41,856 bases of DNA, taken from NCBI GenBank assembly GCA_016935115.1, contig JAFGRN010000014.1:1-41856 (forward strand), given 5' to 3'. Positions 1,853 to 35,731 of this stretch are shown here, in pieces; position 1 is the first letter of the stretch, and each line of letters opens with the position of its first letter. The position numbers and the translations under genes were made by a program. Source of the DNA: Candidatus Omnitrophota bacterium. Its GTDB lineage: Bacteria; Omnitrophota; Gorgyraeia; 2-01-FULL-45-10. The notes below the pieces were generated by a model. That model was not told the DNA's origin. It ran no database searches and saw nothing but the letters and a program-made list of their open reading frames with translations.

Positions 1853-1926
1853 TGCCCGGTGGTGTAATGGTAGCACATCAGATTTTGGATCTGAGTGTTC
1901 AGGTTCGAATCCTGGCCGGGCAGCCA
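1853..1926 (+). tRNA. tRNA-Gln (anticodon TTG)
   Basis: Acceptor stem TGCCCGG/CCGGGCA, D arm GTGTAATGGTAGCAC, anticodon arm TCAGA-TTTTGGA-TCTGA, T loop GTTCGAATC, encoded CCA. Confidence 0.97.
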
Positions 1927-2044
1927 GTAGCTTGAGCAAGAGAAGTCAGGGATTCGAAGCTTGTGAGCGCCGAGCGAATAGCGAGGAAAAGCGCTATGCG
2001 CGGTAGCCAGGCTGTATGAAGCTTCGTAGGAATGAGAGGTTGAG

Positions 2045-13763: not shown

Positions 13764-13843
13764 TGGAAGCAGCTGCCGGGGACAGGTCTGAGAAGGATTT
13801 TGAAAACGTCCCTGATTCTACAGTAGCGAGGAGAGGGAGAGTT

Positions 13844-18950: not shown

Positions 18951-19669
18951 TGTACAGAGAGCGCGCCTACAGGAGATGGGTTAATGCAGACGGCCTCGTC
19001 ACATTCGAGGTGATGGAGAAAGAGACGGATCTCGCCATCTCCGCCTCAAGGGACCTGGAGAGGCAGGCTCGTTCGGCACTATTGACCTACCGCAAGGAGA
19101 TTGAAGATTATATAAAACTTGACTGCGCCTTTTTAACATCTCTGGAGCCGTTAAGCGTGAGAGCCGGAGCCCCTCTTATAATAAGGTCGATGGCTGATGC
19201 GGCCGCGAAAGCCGGTGTCGGACCGATGGCGGCTGTCGCCGGTGCGGTCGCCGAATTCGTCGGCAGGGATCTCCTGCAGTTCTCCGGCGAAGTTATAGTC
19301 GAGAACGGCGGCGACATATTTTTAAGGAGCGCGAAGAAGAGAGTGATGGGTATCTATGCAGGCGAGGAGTCGCCGTTTACCGGCAAACTGGCCATAGAAA
19401 CGGGGCCCTCGGAGGACGGCATCGGCGTATGCGCTTCGAGCGGCACGGTCAGCCACTCCTTAAGCTTCGGGAAATCGGACGCTGTAGTGATCATGGCCGA
19501 TGAGGCCGCCCTGGCGGATGCAGTTGCCACGGCATCGGGTAATATGTTAAAATCTTCCATGGATATAGAGAAGGCTATCGATTTTGCCCGGTCTGTAGAA
19601 GGCGTAAACGGAGCCCTTGTCATAATAAAAGATAAGATGGGAAGCTGGGGCGGGATAAAATTAGTGTAA
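18950..19669 (+). CDS. UPF0280 / COG2122 ApbE-like protein
   Basis: YRER.YR, ETDL, VGPMAAVAGA, ENGGDI, GVCASSGTVSHSLSFG, ADAVATA. Confidence 0.85.
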   Translation: MYRERAYRRWVNADGLVTFEVMEKETDLAISASRDLERQARSALLTYRKEIEDYIKLDCAFLTSLEPLSVRAGAPLIIRSMADAAAKAGVGPMAAVAGAVAEFVGRDLLQFSGEVIVENGGDIFLRSAKKRVMGIYAGEESPFTGKLAIETGPSEDGIGVCASSGTVSHSLSFGKSDAVVIMADEAALADAVATASGNMLKSSMDIEKAIDFARSVEGVNGALVIIKDKMGSWGGIKLV

Positions 19670-19703
19670 AGAGTGAGACGGGGGACAATAAGGGGGTTTA
19701 AAG

Positions 19704-20111
19704 ATGGTATCCAAAAGAATAGTCCTGACATTTCCGCATGACATGGTGGACCAGCCTATAGTCTATAAGCTTGTCAAGGAACACAATCTTGTCTTTAATA
19801 TATTACAGGCCAAGATCACTCCGCGGGAAGAAGGGGTAATGGTGCTGGAATTGAAAGGCAAGAAAGAAGATTATGTCGCGGGCATAAAATACCTGAGGTC
19901 CATAGGCGTGAAGATCCAGCCGATAAGCCGCGATGTGACGAGGGATGAGGAGAAGTGCACCCATTGCGGCGCATGCGTAACAATATGCCCGACAGGAGCG
20001 CTCTATACGGATAAGAAGACGATGAAAGTCATGTTCGATTCCGAAAAGTGTATTGCCTGCGAACTCTGCGTAAAGGCCTGCCCGCCCCGCGCCATGATGG
20101 TGAAATTGTAA
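19704..20111 (+). CDS. NIL-domain 2x[4Fe-4S] ferredoxin
   Basis: P.VYKLVK..NL.FNILQA NIL domain; CTHCGACVTICP and CIACELCVKACP. Confidence 0.88.
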   Translation: MVSKRIVLTFPHDMVDQPIVYKLVKEHNLVFNILQAKITPREEGVMVLELKGKKEDYVAGIKYLRSIGVKIQPISRDVTRDEEKCTHCGACVTICPTGALYTDKKTMKVMFDSEKCIACELCVKACPPRAMMVKL

Positions 20112-31989: not shown

Positions 31990-32473
31990 TAGCGTCAGAT
32001 CGGGCGATCTAGCCGCGGAGATAAAGAAGAGGGTAAGGGGCAAGGTCACGATATCCGCCATCGGCAACATAATGAGGGGCGATGACGGCCTCGGCCCGAA
32101 ACTGATAGAGATGCTGAAGGCCCGCAATGTGAAGGCGGGCCTTTTTGATTGCGGAACGGCCCCGGAGAATTATATCTTTCCAATGCTCACGACGCTGTGC
32201 GATACTCTCATCCTCGTGGACGCGGCGGACATGGCCATAGAGCCGGGGCTCGCCAGGGTGCTTAATGTCGATGATATAGCGAATGTCAGCTTCTCCACGC
32301 ACTGCCCGTCGCCGCGGCTCTTCATAGACCTGCTGAAGACTGGAAACGAAAACCTCAATGTCTTCGTCATATCCGTACAACCCAAAGATACCTCTCTCGG
32401 GATCCCATTGAGCGCGGAGGTCCTCAAAGGGCTCGAAACCCTCGCGGACGCGCTCACAGAAGCGCTTGCCTGA
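31979..32473 (+). CDS. hycI: Hydrogenase maturation endopeptidase
   Basis: IGNIMRGDDGLGP, GTAPEN, LVDAAD, STH. Confidence 0.88.
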   Translation: MSDNSVRSGDLAAEIKKRVRGKVTISAIGNIMRGDDGLGPKLIEMLKARNVKAGLFDCGTAPENYIFPMLTTLCDTLILVDAADMAIEPGLARVLNVDDIANVSFSTHCPSPRLFIDLLKTGNENLNVFVISVQPKDTSLGIPLSAEVLKGLETLADALTEALA

Positions 32474-32475
32474 TA

Positions 32476-32720
32476 GGGATTTTTCAGCTATCAGCTTCAG
32501 GTGGAAGTGACCAAAGCGATCCACCTGGAGCGACTGTCGTAAAAATGCGATACCTATAGGCGATATACCGGGACAAGGAAACTGCTCCATGGCTTATGTG
32601 TATGCAGGTTCATTGGCCATCGCATTTTTACCACAGCGAATTTACATGCCTAATGTAAATTCGCGGCAAGCGAAAGGTGGTCGCTTGGTCACATCTGTAG
32701 GGATGGGACCGAAAAATCCC
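32476..32720. repeat. Structured palindromic intergenic element, copy C
   Basis: GGGATTTTTC/GAAAAATCCC ends; stems 32539-32551/32619-32631 and 32636-32647/32653-32664; motifs shared with 35495-35605. Confidence 0.8.
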
Positions 32721-32773
32721 GAAAAGGGACGTTTTAGCTTGAATTTACGCGTGATATTATACATAATTGAAAT

Positions 32774-34171
32774 ATGCTGAGCGCGACTATAGAAGAGATC
32801 AAGGATCCGCCGGAACCGCAGGAGATATTCCGTTCGATGCACGATCGCGCCTGCGGCTTCTTCCTGGATAGCGCATGTGATCCGGAAAAACTGGGGCGCT
32901 ATTCGTTGATGGGATGCGACCCGTTCCTGGTATTCAGGTCCAAGGGTGATGCCATCATGTTGGAACGCCCCGGCCGCCCGACGGAGAAATTGACGGGCAA
33001 TCCTTTCCTTGTATTAAAAAAACTGCTGAAAAAATACCCCGCAAGGCCTGTAAAGGAGATTCCTTTTGCCGGAGGCGCCGTTGGATATTTCTCCTACGAC
33101 CTGAAGAACTTCATAGAGGACCTGCCGGACCGCCCGCCGGATGACCTTAAGATTCCGGATTGCATCCTGGGGTTTTATGATTCGGTCGTTATATACGACA
33201 ACCTTAAGAAGAGGTGTTATATTTCGGACATGGGAATAACCGGAGGGGCTTCGAAGCGTCTGGCGAAACTTATCCGGGCCGCTTCGCGTAAAGGGACAGG
33301 CCCGGAGGATTTTAATCCGCCCAGGAACGTGAGGTCAAATTTCTCGAAACGTTCATATATGGCCGCCGTCGAAAGGGCAAAAGATTATATCCGGAAGGGC
33401 GATATATATCAGGTCAATCTTTCCCAAAGATTTAAAGCCGTTCTCGCCTGCGGGGCATTCGGCCTTTATATGCGGCTGAGGGAATGTTCTCCGGCGCCGT
33501 TTGCTTCATATCTAAATTTCGGACAGGTGAAGATATTAAGCTCATCGCCGGAACGTTTTCTCTTTAAGAGGGGCGGCTATATCGAGACCCGGCCCATAAA
33601 AGGGACCAGGCCGCGCGGCGCCGATAAGGTTTCAGACGCGGCTATGGAAGCGGAACTGAAAGCCAGCCGGAAGGACATGGCCGAGCATATCATGATAGTG
33701 GACCTGGAGCGCAATGACCTGGGCAGAATATGCCGCTACGGCTCCGTCGGAGTGGATGAATCGGCGGTCATAGAGAAGTATGCAAATGTCTTTCATATGG
33801 TTTCAACGGTCTCCGGCACCCTGAAAGACGGAGTCGATCCCGTCGACTGCCTTTTGGCGGCTTTCCCGGGAGGGTCGATAACGGGAGCGCCCAAAATCCG
33901 GTCGATGGAGATTATCGAGGAGCTTGAAAATGTGAAGAGGTCCGTATATACAGGAGCCATAGGGTATATAGGTTTCGATGGCAATATGGATACTTCCATA
34001 GTGATTAGAACCTTACTGGTTAAAGAAAGAGACGCGTATTTCCAGGTGGGCGGGGGCATAGTTGCCGATTCCGATCCCGAAAAAGAGTATGATGAGACCC
34101 TGCATAAAGCCGCCGGGCTCATTGACGCGCTCGGCCTTGAATCGAAGAATAAGGAGCCGATCCCGGCATGA
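32774..34171 (+). CDS. pabB: Aminodeoxychorismate synthase component I
   Basis: FFLDS, GRYS, GDIYQVNLSQ, SSPERF, PIKGT, IVDLERNDL, FPGGSITGAPK. Confidence 0.93.
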   Translation: MLSATIEEIKDPPEPQEIFRSMHDRACGFFLDSACDPEKLGRYSLMGCDPFLVFRSKGDAIMLERPGRPTEKLTGNPFLVLKKLLKKYPARPVKEIPFAGGAVGYFSYDLKNFIEDLPDRPPDDLKIPDCILGFYDSVVIYDNLKKRCYISDMGITGGASKRLAKLIRAASRKGTGPEDFNPPRNVRSNFSKRSYMAAVERAKDYIRKGDIYQVNLSQRFKAVLACGAFGLYMRLRECSPAPFASYLNFGQVKILSSSPERFLFKRGGYIETRPIKGTRPRGADKVSDAAMEAELKASRKDMAEHIMIVDLERNDLGRICRYGSVGVDESAVIEKYANVFHMVSTVSGTLKDGVDPVDCLLAAFPGGSITGAPKIRSMEIIEELENVKRSVYTGAIGYIGFDGNMDTSIVIRTLLVKERDAYFQVGGGIVADSDPEKEYDETLHKAAGLIDALGLESKNKEPIPA

Positions 34172-35019
34172 ACAAAGTCTGGCTGAATAAGAAGATAATT
34201 GACGCTGAAAGCGCTTGCATACCGATATCGGACAGGGGTTTCATGTACGGTGACGGCGTGTTTGAGACAATGCGTTCTTATTCCGGAATGGTTTTTAAGA
34301 TAGACGCCCATCTTGACAGGTTGTTCAATTCCCTTAAAGTGGCGAAATTTTCCAGTCCTTACGCAAAAGATTATCTGAAGCGGGAAATATACAGGCTGCT
34401 TGACGCCAATCGCCTTAAAGAAGCGTATATCCGCCTAATGATAACCAGGGGCGAGGGGCGATTCGGGATGGAACATAAGGATAGATTTATTCCTAATACC
34501 GTGATAGTCGTAAAAGAGTTCCACAGCTACCCGGCGCGCGTGTACGCTAAGGGTATAACGGCCGGAGTGGTCGATATAAGGCAGAATGAGCTATCACCGG
34601 TTTCGGGGATCAAATCCTTGAACTTCATTAATTACATCCTGGCGAGGTTTGAGGCGAAAGAGAAAGGTTATGACGAGGCCATTCTCGCGAATTCCAGGGG
34701 GCATATTGCCGAGGCGACCACGAGCAATATATTCATGGTGAAGGGAATGGGGCTTATAACACCATCCCCCGATAGCGGTATCCTGCCCGGCATTACAAGG
34801 ATGGTCGTGATGCAGCTGGCCAGGCGCCGCGGGATATTCGTCAAAGAGATGGCCGTTACCAGGCGCGAGCTATATAATTCAGATGAGATATTTCTCACCA
34901 ATTCACTCTCCGAGGTCCTGCCGGTAGTTGCCGTTGACGGGAAGAGGATAGGCCGCGGCGTTCCCGGAGAAACAACCCGGCTCCTTCACAGCCTCTACCG
35001 CAAAGAAACCTCCCGATAG
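34168..35019 (+). CDS. Class IV PLP enzyme, probable aminodeoxychorismate lyase (PabC/IlvE/Dat family)
   Basis: DRGFMYGDGVFET, HLDRL, IKSLN, E...SNIF, ILPGITR, FLTNS; overlaps pabB stop. Confidence 0.85.
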   Translation: MNKVWLNKKIIDAESACIPISDRGFMYGDGVFETMRSYSGMVFKIDAHLDRLFNSLKVAKFSSPYAKDYLKREIYRLLDANRLKEAYIRLMITRGEGRFGMEHKDRFIPNTVIVVKEFHSYPARVYAKGITAGVVDIRQNELSPVSGIKSLNFINYILARFEAKEKGYDEAILANSRGHIAEATTSNIFMVKGMGLITPSPDSGILPGITRMVVMQLARRRGIFVKEMAVTRRELYNSDEIFLTNSLSEVLPVVAVDGKRIGRGVPGETTRLLHSLYRKETSR

Positions 35020-35031
35020 AGATATAATTTG

Positions 35032-35663
35032 TAGCAAAAATATCCCCTGTGCCCCCGCTCCAGTTAAGCCATAATCCAAAGTTATGTTCGCACCGGGTAT
35101 CTTCCGGCACAGGGGGTGAAGTATATTACAAAGCGACCACCTTCCCATAGTCAGCCCTTACAGCCCGGGTGCATCGCGGGGACGTGGAAATTCCCCTGCG
35201 AGGAATTTCCACTCGGAAAGGTCGCTCGCTCTCCCGCCAAATAGGCCGGATGTCAAGCAGAGTATTTTAATATGTATTTGGCGGGATCCATGCCACGCCC
35301 TACGACTTTCGACGCCCCGCTCAACACCCGGGCTGTAAGGGCACTAATGATAAGCTCCAGGTGAGTCGCTTTGTAACACTTTCCCTGTATGCCGGAAGAT
35401 ACCCGTTACTCTCTCCCTGAAGCAAAAATATCGTATGGGGTGTCCCCAAATGGACCGTCCCCTGTTGCGGGGTGGCAGAACTTTTGGCACCTTGCTGGAG
35501 CGAATCTCTAAAATTTCGATACCTATAGGCGCTACAGACTTTATCATCGAAATTTTAGCGACAGCGAACGAGGAAGCCTATTGACGAGTGAGCGGCGAGC
35601 GAAAGCAAGTGCCAAAAGTAAATGCCACCACTGAGGGGATGGGGGCCCGGGGGATATTTTTGC
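35032..35663. repeat. Large composite palindromic element, copy B, with nested inverted repeats
   Basis: GCAAAAATATCCCC (35034-35047)/GGGGATATTTTTGC (35650-35663) enclosing two rods, 35094-35405 and 35457-35640. Confidence 0.88.
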
Positions 35664-35674
35664 CCTGATAGCAT

Positions 35675-35704
35675 TTGACCTTAATAGCATATATATGATA
35701 CAAT
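35675..35704 (+). promoter_or_regulatory. Sigma70 promoter of the LPS sugar operon
   Basis: TTGACC-N18-TACAAT with TG extension; SD AAGGA before ATG 35732. Confidence 0.65.
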
Positions 35705-35731
35705 AGCGCCCGAATTTCGAAAGGAAAAATT

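What the first reader, a model, noticed from the sequence alone, without database searches (positions are those of the whole stretch)
35495..35605. Stems written in tandem G.A mismatches: strand-specific hidden palindromes
Seen: GCGAACGAGGAA (35564-35575) opposite TGACGAGTGAGC (35582-35593) gives 6 Watson-Crick pairs interleaved with three tandem GA/AG pairs. The equivalent 12-bp stem in copy C (32636-32664, same GCCTA loop) is fully Watson-Crick. CTGGAGCGA opposite GAGCGAAAG pairs the same way, as do 1970-1986 and, on the minus strand, GCGAA...GGAGC in 35056-35092 and 41706-41741. Established: tandem sheared G.A pairs are stable in both DNA and RNA, while the complementary strand would carry C.T mismatches. 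Inference: the structure is read on one strand only, as with HUH-transposase/REP or attC-type ssDNA substrates or protein-binding RNA motifs, and inverted-repeat finders would miss it.
Basis: partly seen in the sequence, partly recalled or inferred. Interest (0 to 1): 0.8.

Follow-up and report, generated by a model that had tools for sequence, protein, structure and literature searches.

The report
Mobile fold-back repeat with G.A-paired hairpin
The stretch is one copy of a previously undescribed mobile, highly structured repeat of Omnitrophota bacteria, in which one hairpin can be written either in normal base pairs or in tandem G.A pairs, showing that the element is read as a folded single strand.

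Summary
The core observation holds. 35564-35593 is a 12-position hairpin of 6 Watson-Crick pairs and 3 tandem GA/AG steps. It is the only such hairpin in the window, and none appeared in 200 random controls.

It is helix P3 of a 160-290 nt multi-copy element: outer arms, long P1, a conserved purine-rich three-way junction, P2, and a 12-bp P3 with a GCCTA loop. The covariance model finds 11 matches in this genome. The P3/J3 pattern occurs in 31 of 40 family genomes. The model hits 13 of 151 sampled Omnitrophota genomes, in four families.

P3 comes in all-Watson-Crick versions and in a 'CGAG-block' version with tandem G.A at positions 3-4 and 7-8. The G.A steps persist while the pairs around them change compensatorily. 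Six of 7 copies outside the window's family are of the G.A type.

P3 holds 92 G.A/A.G cells against 1 C.U/U.C cell, so selection acts on one strand. The element is mobile: five orthologous sites are filled in one species and empty in another. Its orientation to neighbouring genes is random.

Not supported family-wide: the third G.A step (copy-specific), the junction pairing as drawn, and the minus-strand examples. Whether ssDNA or RNA is read stays open; I lean to ssDNA.

The parts
35422..35432 (+). Outer arm P0, 5' side (GCAAAAATATC) of copy 1
   Evidence: Complementary to 35653-35663. The arm motif GGATATTTTTGC occurs 32 times in the genome against about 0.17 expected. Family copies carry the equivalent arms AAAATTTTTCGGC and GCCGAAAAATTTT.
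35471..35494 (+). P1, 5' arm (includes the short outer helix and a small internal loop)
   Evidence: Covariance-model match 35471-35629, 158 bits. All 20 pairs of helices 1-3 have compensatory changes. The repeat finder pair I2.
35495..35503 (+). J5 junction strand CTGGAGCGA
   Evidence: Conserved in all copies. Its second base covaries with J3: T-A in 65, C-G in 26, other in 4 of 95 copies. The GC/GC pair holds in 98 of 100 cells.
35505..35561 (+). P2 hairpin: arms 35505-35520 and 35546-35561, with an apical loop carrying the conserved GATACCTATAGGCG (35518-35531)
   Evidence: the repeat finder I1, 94% complementary. 10 of 13 pairs have compensatory changes. Two exact copies of the 14-mer in the window and 10 matches within 1 mismatch in the genome.
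35564..35593 (+). P3 hairpin of the finding: arm GCGAACGAGGAA, loop GCCTAT, arm TGACGAGTGAGC, with tandem G.A at positions 3-4 and 7-8 (family-wide) and 10-11 (this copy only)
   Evidence: for this copy. for the family.
35594..35605 (+). J3 junction strand GGCGAGCGAAAG (family consensus GNCRAGCGRARG)
35606..35629 (+). P1, 3' arm
35653..35663 (+). Outer arm P0, 3' side (GATATTTTTGC)
32476..32720 (+). Copy 2 of the element (long P2 class, all-Watson-Crick P3 at 32636-32664). It is an insertion between hycI and pabB.
   Evidence: Covariance-model match 32501-32698 and fold. The orthologous site is empty in G003 and G004, where stop and start read TGATATG.
1970..1986 (+). CCGAGCGAATAGCGAGG: a hairpin with one CGAG block in an unrelated repeat module just downstream of a tRNA
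35056..35092 (-). Separate repeat module with a small CATAA/TTATG hairpin. The proposed GCGAA/GGAGC closing stem is not conserved.
41706..41741 (-). Second copy of the same module

Best explanation
SHOWN
- 35471-35629 (about 35422-35663 with its outer arms) is one copy of a non-autonomous, mobile fold-back repeat confined to a clade of Candidatus Omnitrophota.
- On the strand given, it folds into a long closing stem, a conserved purine-rich three-way junction, a long P2 and a 12-position P3 hairpin.
- P3 can be written in Watson-Crick pairs or in two 'CGAG blocks' (C-G, sheared G.A, sheared A.G, G-C). The two spellings replace each other among copies.
- The element inserts into intergenic DNA in either orientation.

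INFERRED
- Selection sees the folded top strand, not the duplex.

MY COMMITMENT (least certain)
- The folded form that matters is single-stranded DNA of the top strand, handled by a strand-specific, structure-reading enzyme during the element's propagation. A Y1/HUH transposase of the REP-associated kind is the obvious candidate.
- RNA is nearly as likely.
For: Real, structured family
- 95.0% of 4767 cells pair, against 76.0% in shuffles. 41 of 49 pairs show compensatory change. 0 of 500 shuffles reach this, and slid controls give 34-44% (the alignment is fitted to the model).
- 31 of 40 family genomes carry the P3/J3 pattern, with 0 control hits.
- 13 of 151 phylum genomes carry the element: f1 7/7, f3 2/2, f12 2/2, f32 1/1.

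G.A steps are part of a helix
- 32 of 137 hairpins (13 of 56 distinct) carry them, at positions 3-4 and/or 7-8.
- Among 15 distinct G.A-type pair strings, position 2 is C-G, U-A or G-C; position 5 is G-C, A-U or C-G; position 6 is C-G or U-A; position 9 is G-C, A-U or G.U; position 12 is A-U, U-A or G-C. Position 7 is G.A in 15 of 15 and position 8 is A.G in 14 of 15.
- 6 of 7 copies outside family f1 are G.A type.

One strand
- P3 G.A 92 against C.U 1. Other helices G.A 41 against C.U 12, and G.U 72 against A.C 35.
- Top strand more stable in 102 of 107 copies.
- Consensus G.A hairpin: -12 kcal/mol on top against -6.7 on the bottom strand.

Mobile
- hycI-pabB is filled in G000 and empty in G003 and G004.
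- Four further sites are filled in G004 and short in G000.

Leaning to DNA
- G.U is nearly absent where G.A is common: 3 G.U of 1266 P3 cells, and 2.1% elsewhere. This fits DNA, where G.T destabilises, better than RNA (inference).
- CGAG blocks form thermally stable DNA hairpins by NMR (PMC10085684, abstract and passages).
- Reverse transcriptase was found in only 2 of 5 copy-rich genomes.
- Y1 transposase genes are in 5 of 5 of them, and one is flanked by its own inverted repeat family in REPIN style.
- Close relatives of that Y1 gene occur in 11 of 13 element-bearing genomes against 15 of 138 without the element. This comparison is confounded by kinship.
Against: - No Y1 gene flanks or adjoins the element. 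In G000 the three Y1 genes are flanked by other repeats. That repeat family is never within 10 kb of a copy (fragmented assembly). By coordinates there is no adjacency in G004, G017, G019 or G024.
- Y1_Tnp is in 123 of 151 phylum genomes, so its presence is not specific.
- Orientation relative to flanking genes, and so probably to replication, is random: 36 same, 39 opposite, 9 divergent, 4 convergent of 88. IS608-type ssDNA elements show a bias (recalled).
- Conserved unpaired junction and loop bases beside covarying helices are the classic signature of a structured RNA.
- DNA nearest-neighbour parameters give the G.A hairpins only -1 to -4 kcal/mol.
- This window's own P3 is marginal under both parameter sets.
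- One possible 3-bp duplication (ATA) at the hycI-pabB insertion would fit a cut-and-paste DDE enzyme better (a single composite site).
Confidence: 0.4

Rival explanations
1. The fold is read as RNA. Each copy, or read-through of it, yields a structured non-coding RNA. Its three-way junction, conserved loops and CGAG-block hairpin serve a protein or a tertiary fold. The element would be a mobile RNA gene, or an RNA-level cis element such as a stabiliser or processing site.
For: - Conserved junction strands (CTGGAGCGA, ACAG, GNCRAGCGRARG), a conserved P3 loop and a conserved P2 apical motif sit beside covarying helices.
- The second J5 base pairs as U-A in 65, C-G in 26 and U.G in 2 of 95 copies.
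- G.U exceeds A.C by 72 to 35.
- RNA parameters give the consensus G.A hairpin -12 kcal/mol and recover the proposed pairing.
- Whole copies fold far better than shuffles, z -5.0 and -6.8.
- Tandem sheared G.A in a CGAG context is a classic stable RNA motif (recalled).
Against: - Orientation to neighbouring genes is random, so about half the copies would be read antisense unless each has its own promoter. The flanks show only the outer arms, with no conserved promoter.
- One copy lies antisense inside a cdhC-cdhD operon.
- G.U is rare for an RNA family: 2.1% of helix cells and 0.2% in P3.
- No Rfam family matches.
- There is no conserved synteny in the families where it has 1-4 copies.
Confidence: 0.33
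2. It is an ordinary duplex-DNA MITE moved by a DDE transposase through its terminal inverted arms. The internal helices are kept perfect by DNA-level palindrome correction or by recombination between copies. The G.A hairpin is a tolerated relic with no single-strand reader.
For: - Terminal inverted arms are present.
- Insertion polymorphism is seen.
- A possible ATA duplication flanks one site.
- Helices differ between copies mostly by whole-module swaps with few intermediates.
- Orientation is random.
Against: - A relic would decay to random mismatches. Instead G.A/A.G stays at the same positions in four families while its neighbours change compensatorily, and C.U is 1 against 92.
- Palindrome correction would erase the G.A steps.
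- No transposase gene recurs within 2.5 kb of 137 copies.
Confidence: 0.15
3. The two P3 arms are direct repeats (both contain CGAGCGAG) bound as duplex DNA by a protein. They are not a hairpin.
For: Both arms of the G.A type share the same 8-mer in the same direction.
Against: The changes are antiparallel-complementary, not parallel-identical.
- In G000, arm-1 position 5 G to A goes with arm-2 C to T at the pairing partner, not at the direct-repeat partner.
- In G014 and G022, position 6 C to T goes with G to A at the pairing partner.
- Three distinct G.A-type pair strings have GC-rich Watson-Crick lower stems with no repeat, and about 100 copies replace the whole stem by unrelated Watson-Crick sequence.
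Confidence: 0.03
4. Chance: purine-rich sequence on the coding strand happens to line up as G.A.
For: The + strand is purine-rich throughout. The isolated hairpin of this copy folds no better than shuffles.
Against: 0 of 200 null sequences give such a hairpin. The same motif recurs at the same place in a conserved element in 4 families.
Confidence: 0.02

Closest known systems
REPIN / REP elements with RAYT (Y1 HUH) transposases (Bertels & Rainey 2011, PMC3116915: only the search listing and the start of the abstract seen; the rest recalled)
   Same: Multi-copy, intergenic, non-autonomous fold-back hairpins. The genome carries Y1_Tnp genes, and one of them is flanked on both sides by an inverted 60-nt repeat that has a dozen other copies. 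A strand-specific reading is expected.
   Different: It is 160-290 nt with a three-way junction and conserved internal loops, not a 20-40 nt hairpin or a simple doublet. No Y1 gene is flanked by it. It occurs in 13 of 151 genomes, whereas Y1_Tnp occurs in 123 of 151.
Structured MITE-like intergenic repeats (ERIC/IRU, Correia/NEMIS, pneumococcal BOX, bcr1): recalled, no call
   Same: 100-250 nt, mosaic modules, terminal inverted arms, either orientation, inserted between genes and inside operons, strong predicted folds.
   Different: Here the fold is a branched structure with sequence-conserved junctions, helices that covary across families, and a non-Watson-Crick helix kept on one strand. No parent insertion sequence was found.
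IS200/IS605 ends and their palindrome-associated derivatives; integron attC sites (recalled)
   Same: Single-strand substrates whose imperfect hairpins carry non-Watson-Crick information read on one strand.
   Different: Those use small subterminal hairpins or a single bulged stem. They show orientation or strand bias and sit beside their enzyme or in cassette arrays. None of this is seen here.
CGAG block of DNA hairpins (AUTS2 promoter, PMC10085684: abstract and passages read)
   Same: The same unit: C-G, sheared G.A, sheared A.G, G-C, stacked consecutively. The consensus P3 (GCGAGCGAGGATGCCTAATCCGAGCGAGC) contains two such blocks.
   Different: That is a human promoter repeat studied in vitro. 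Here the blocks sit in a bacterial mobile element and are interchangeable with Watson-Crick stems. The geometry is not measured here.
Tandem sheared G.A in RNA helices (the GGCGAGCC duplex; kink-turns): recalled
   Same: The 5'-CGAG-3' context of the most stable RNA tandem G.A.
   Different: It is not a kink-turn: no 3-nt bulge adjoins the G.A pairs (inspection). No RNA evidence.
GCGAAGC-type DNA mini-hairpins (PMC13037366: listing and start of abstract only)
   Same: One copy of the tRNA-side module (C23) reads CCGAGCGAAGCGAGG, i.e. GCGAAGC closed by a CGAG block.
   Different: This is a different repeat module, and the loop varies between copies.

Membership tests
REPIN/RAYT system | Repeat forms a fold-back hairpin from inverted arms | tested here: met
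   Outer arms and P1 pair end to end.
REPIN/RAYT system | The cognate Y1 (RAYT) gene is flanked by the repeat | tested here: not met
   The three Y1 genes of G000 are flanked by other repeats. By coordinates no element lies next to a Y1 gene in G004, G017, G019 or G024.
REPIN/RAYT system | Repeat family and one Y1 lineage co-occur | tested here: inconclusive
   Relatives of Y1a occur in 11 of 13 element-bearing genomes against 15 of 138 others. Kin are not independent. Y1b gives 7 of 13 and Y1c 3 of 13.
DDE-type MITE | Terminal inverted repeats | tested here: met
   AAAATTTTTCGGC and GCCGAAAAATTTT in the family; GGGATTTTTCGGC and GGATATTTTTGC types in G000.
DDE-type MITE | Target-site duplication | tested here: inconclusive
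   A possible ATA at one composite insertion. Four other filled/empty pairs are too diverged to read.
DDE-type MITE | Autonomous parent with the same ends | tested here: not met
   No recurrent ORF within 2.5 kb of 137 copies. The largest clusters are spurious frames or housekeeping orthologues.
IS200/IS605-derived element | Orientation bias and an accompanying TnpB or TnpA | tested here: not met
   36 same against 39 opposite. The TnpB domain PF07282 was found in 0 of 5 genomes.
Integron attC | Sits in cassette arrays next to an integrase, all in one orientation | tested here: not met
   Flanked by housekeeping genes (hycI, pabB, the KDO operon, cdhC/D, rodA) in both orientations. Core-site motifs were not tested.
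Any Rfam 15 family (including hammerhead, twister, HEARO, IS605-orfB) | Covariance-model match | tested here: not met
   Only a tRNA at gathering score in the window. Nothing but two noise hits at E up to 10 in 32400-35750.
CGAG block / tandem sheared G.A motif | Pyrimidine-GA-purine on both strands, antiparallel, closed by C-G and G-C | tested here: met
   Sequence level only. Sheared geometry is not testable with these tools.
Kink-turn | A 3-nt bulge directly followed by G.A and A.G | tested here: not met
   No bulge next to the G.A steps in P3. The junction strands do not fit either orientation (inspection).

The most novel reading that the evidence does not exclude
This is a new class of mobile element whose recognition structure is a branched single-strand fold. 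One helix of that fold is natively encoded in sheared G.A 'CGAG blocks'. Copies outside the window's family are mostly of this type (6 of 7 examined), and Watson-Crick spellings were seen only in that family, so the G.A form may be the older one.

If so, it would be the first natural case in which a transposable element carries a non-Watson-Crick helix as a heritable, strand-specific signal.
Probability: 0.3. Interest if true: 0.8.

Novelty: new variant of a known kind. Interest (0 to 1): 0.6.

Why it matters
- Repeat and inverted-repeat finders, and nearest-neighbour DNA folding, miss helices written in G.A pairs. This case shows such helices can be conserved for long periods and identified by comparison alone.
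- It adds an abundant, structured, mobile repeat to Omnitrophota, a phylum known almost only from metagenomes. The repeats break assemblies: many copies sit at contig ends.
- The insertions also split translationally coupled genes such as hycI-pabB, so they probably reshape operon expression.

Tried and rejected
RNA evidence. The look-up of sequencing runs listed one DNA holder and two metatranscriptomes of the same study with next to none of the words: no RNA holder listed. Laying their contigs on 32300-35900 gave RNA contigs only on conserved parts of pabB/pabC at under 90% likeness, and none on the elements. This says nothing either way.

Rfam: no family.

Loop-bulge pseudoknot. The P3 loop GCCTA could pair with TAGGC in the P2 apical motif. 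In the G007 copies read, loop GCCCA goes with TGGGC. But three G000 copies (GCCCA with TAGGC), L104 and L130 break the pattern. Dropped as unresolved.

Hammerhead and kink-turn readings of the junction: the motifs do not fit (inspection) and Rfam is silent.

Neighbouring protein partner: none recurs.

Other mobilisers.
- TnpB domain: 0 of 5 genomes.
- Reverse transcriptase: 2 of 5.
- Y1_Tnp: too common to be informative, 123 of 151.
- The 60-nt repeat that flanks Y1a is not near any copy.

Viral contigs. The P3/J3 pattern hit 6 stretches, and none matched the covariance model, so they are chance hits. Its hits outside Omnitrophota-titled records are single matches in large genomes and were not checked with the model.

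Whole-fold count of G.U. Counting G.U in minimum-energy folds of both strands gave 279 against 272. I judged this uninformative, because free folding re-pairs mismatches, and replaced it with the column-wise count.

Target-site duplication. Four G004-filled/G000-empty pairs are too diverged to read.

Literature. Two searches on Omnitrophota with 'noncoding RNA', 'repetitive' or 'transposase' found nothing on such repeats. A third search gave the structural precedents. This is not proof that the element is unpublished. Supplements were not consulted.

Full report
**What is at the coordinates.** The window is contig C34 of a 1.40-Mb, 79-contig genome bin that is 82% complete. All long ORFs lie on the + strand, which is purine-rich. 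The finding sits in the 700-nt spacer between pabC (34168-35019) and a KDO-synthesis operon (35732-41670). Read antiparallel they make 6 Watson-Crick pairs and 3 tandem GA/AG steps.

I scanned the window for hairpins with 12-nt arms, a 4-7 nt loop, only Watson-Crick or 5'GA/3'AG tandem positions, and at least two tandems. This is the only hit on either strand. None of 200 first-order Markov sequences of the same length had any hit. An inverted-repeat finder run on 35440-35670 reports three other stems and misses this one.

**The hairpin belongs to a larger element.** A second copy lies at 32501-32698. The two copies share exact motifs (CTGGAGCGA, GATACCTATAGGCG, ACAG, GGCRAGCGAAAG), while their long stems differ in sequence yet still pair. 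The architecture is:
- outer arms P0;
- P1, about 20 bp with a small internal loop and one bulge;
- junction strand J5;
- P2, about 13 bp, with a conserved apical motif and either a short loop or a roughly 45-nt extra arm;
- ACA;
- P3, 12 positions with loop GCCTA;
- junction strand J3;
- P1', the 3' arm of P1.

No Rfam family matches, either at gathering score or at E up to 10.

**Copies and distribution.**
- A covariance model was built from 24 short-class copies. It finds 11 matches in this genome, several cut by contig ends.
- A P3/J3 pattern finds the element in 31 of 40 genomes of the family, with no hit for the reversed control.
- In an even sample of the phylum the model hits 13 of 151 genomes: f1 7/7, f3 2/2, f12 2/2, f32 1/1, and none in the other families sampled, including 0 of 47 in f36.
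- Copy number is up to 18 matches per genome in the window's family, and 1-4 in the other three families.
- Public records that carry the pattern and correspond to these genomes are titled Candidatus Omnitrophota.

**The structure is supported by comparison.** I aligned 110 copies to the model. 95.0% of 4767 cells form standard pairs, against 76.0% after shuffling partners and 34-44% when partners are slid by 1-3 columns. 41 of 49 pairs show changes on both sides, and 0 of 500 shuffles reach any of the five measures. The alignment is fitted to the model and the copies are related, so these figures are generous. The margin is nonetheless very large.

**The G.A pairs.** From 137 hairpins (56 distinct) collected from this genome and 120 loci of the family:
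- 32 copies (13 distinct) carry 5'GA/3'AG tandems at P3 positions 3-4 and/or 7-8;
- the remaining copies are Watson-Crick stems of many unrelated sequences but the same length and loop;
- other mismatches in P3 are rare. In the aligned set of 1266 P3 cells there are 92 G.A/A.G, 3 G.U, 1 A.C, 1 C.U, 3 A.A, 1 G.G and 1 U.U.

The consensus G.A form is GCGAGCGAGGATGCCTAATCCGAGCGAGC, which is two CGAG blocks followed by four Watson-Crick pairs. Around the G.A steps the Watson-Crick pairs change on both sides:
- position 2: C-G or U-A;
- position 5: G-C or A-U (this genome);
- position 6: C-G or U-A;
- position 9: G-C, A-U or G.U;
- position 12: A-U or U-A.

In three lineages the lower stem is replaced by GGCC/GGCC-type pairs, leaving only the 7-8 tandem. 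These changes are complementary in the antiparallel sense. That excludes the idea that the two arms are merely direct repeats bound as duplex DNA.

Outside the window's family, 6 of 7 copies examined are of the G.A type: G038, three copies in G039, G147 and G119. G049 is degenerate. Watson-Crick stems were seen only in family f1. The G.A spelling therefore looks like the older one, although horizontal spread cannot be excluded.

**Strand asymmetry.**
- The complement of a G.A step is a C.T step. In P3 the count is 92 against 1. In the other helices it is 41 against 12, with G.U 72 against A.C 35.
- The top strand has the lower folding energy in 102 of 107 full-length copies, by a mean of 6.2 kcal/mol with RNA parameters.
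- For the consensus G.A hairpin the model gives -12 kcal/mol on the top strand and -6.7 on the complement with RNA parameters. With DNA parameters it gives -4 and -2.5.
- NMR work on CGAG repeats shows that such DNA hairpins are thermally stable (PMC10085684, abstract and passages). The DNA parameter set therefore probably undervalues them.

**What does not hold up.**
- This window's own P3 is a worn copy. It has an indel (TTGAC for TTCC) that creates the third tandem, seen in no other copy. It folds at only -3.7 kcal/mol as RNA, no better than shuffles, and is not predicted as DNA.
- In the junction, the GC/GC pair and the flanking purine-purine oppositions are constant. The clean tandem G.A on both sides is particular to this copy: G opposite G in 64 of 95 copies and A opposite A in 75 of 95 (several positions were fixed by the search pattern).
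- The C/U-to-G/R pair that closes P1 does covary: 65 T-A and 26 C-G.
- The minus-strand stems at 35056-35092 and 41706-41741 belong to another repeat module. Its supposed partner GGAGC is present in 3 of 17 copies.
- The 1970-1986 hairpin is a conserved CGAG-block hairpin in yet another module, without covariation.

**The element is mobile DNA.**
- In G003 and G004 the hycI stop and the pabB start abut (TGATATG). In this genome about 290 nt lie between them, comprising the element and its outer arms, a fragment of another repeat, and a promoter-like site.
- Four more orthologous spacers are 305-641 nt with elements in G004 and 42-164 nt without them in G000. One of these is at 19660-19704 of this window.
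- Copies lie in either orientation relative to their neighbours. Of 88 with genes called on both sides, 36 are co-oriented, 39 opposite, 9 between divergent genes and 4 between convergent genes.
- No ORF recurs beside them.
- In the families with few copies the contexts differ: rodA/radical-SAM, TonB receptor/TPR, and inside cdhD-cdhC.

**Who reads it.**
- The TnpB domain was found in 0 of 5 copy-rich genomes, reverse transcriptase in 2 of 5, and Y1 (HUH) transposase genes in 5 of 5.
- One Y1 gene of this genome (C20) is flanked on both sides by an inverted 60-nt repeat with a dozen other copies. This is a textbook REPIN-RAYT arrangement, but it involves a different repeat, and that repeat is not near any copy of our element.
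- Y1_Tnp is in 123 of 151 genomes of the phylum.
- Close relatives of the C20 gene are in 11 of 13 element-bearing genomes against 15 of 138 others. This is a lead confounded by kinship.

I weigh DNA slightly above RNA for four reasons:
- the element demonstrably moves as DNA;
- reverse transcriptase is mostly not found;
- G.U is almost never used where G.A is common, which fits DNA energetics better (inference);
- helices differ by whole-module swaps rather than through G.U intermediates.

Against this stand the RNA-like pattern of conserved junctions beside covarying stems, the lack of orientation bias, and the absence of an enzyme next to the element. No RNA data could be obtained.

**Verdict.** The wider claims about the junction and the minus strand are not supported as stated. 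The object is an undescribed, clade-specific, mobile, branched fold-back repeat of Omnitrophota. Its nearest known kin are REPIN-like and MITE-like structured repeats, and it fails the defining tests for membership in each.

Noticed in passing
G000 contig C20:15604-16173 and flanks; partial copy in window 13779-13815: A Y1 (HUH) transposase gene is flanked on both sides by an inverted 60-nt unit that contains a tandem 18-nt direct repeat. The unit has at least 12 other copies, many at contig ends: a REPIN-RAYT-like system.
   Followed up: partly
window 35020-35730: The whole spacer is a mosaic of at least five repeat modules found all over the genome. It includes a long imperfect inverted repeat (35094-35193 against 35304-35405) around a core of about 110 nt.
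   Followed up: partly
window 32476-32773: The insertion separates hycI and pabB, whose stop and start abut in two sister species. A sigma-70-like site (TTGAAT, 17 nt, CATAAT; 32739-32767) lies just before the pabB start. A similar site (35675-35704) precedes the KDO operon.
   Followed up: partly
window 1853-2010: A tRNA (1853-1923) is followed by a repeat module with two small hairpins. The second, GCGCTATGCGC, changes compensatorily to GTGCTATGCAC in contig C66.
   Followed up: partly
L304 and L305 (G019:C21 and C50): Two copies carry an extra hairpin of about 45 nt inserted between P3 and J3. The element tolerates insertions at the junction.
   Followed up: no
L045 (G004:C2:131202-131668): Two copies sit head to head in one spacer that is 44 nt long and empty in this window at 19660-19704.
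   Followed up: partly
family-wide, upstream flanks of copies: Many copies are preceded within about 25 nt by another CGAAAAATTTTA-type arm. Modules bounded by the same A/T-run arms therefore occur in tandem, in the manner of BIMEs.
   Followed up: no
whole window: All long ORFs are on one strand, with positive GC skew in 40 of the 41 1-kb windows, and positive AT skew over most of the window (negative between about 22 and 31 kb), across 42 kb.
   Followed up: no
window 35732-36679: The first gene after the element (315 aa) has no Pfam family at E 0.001.
   Followed up: no
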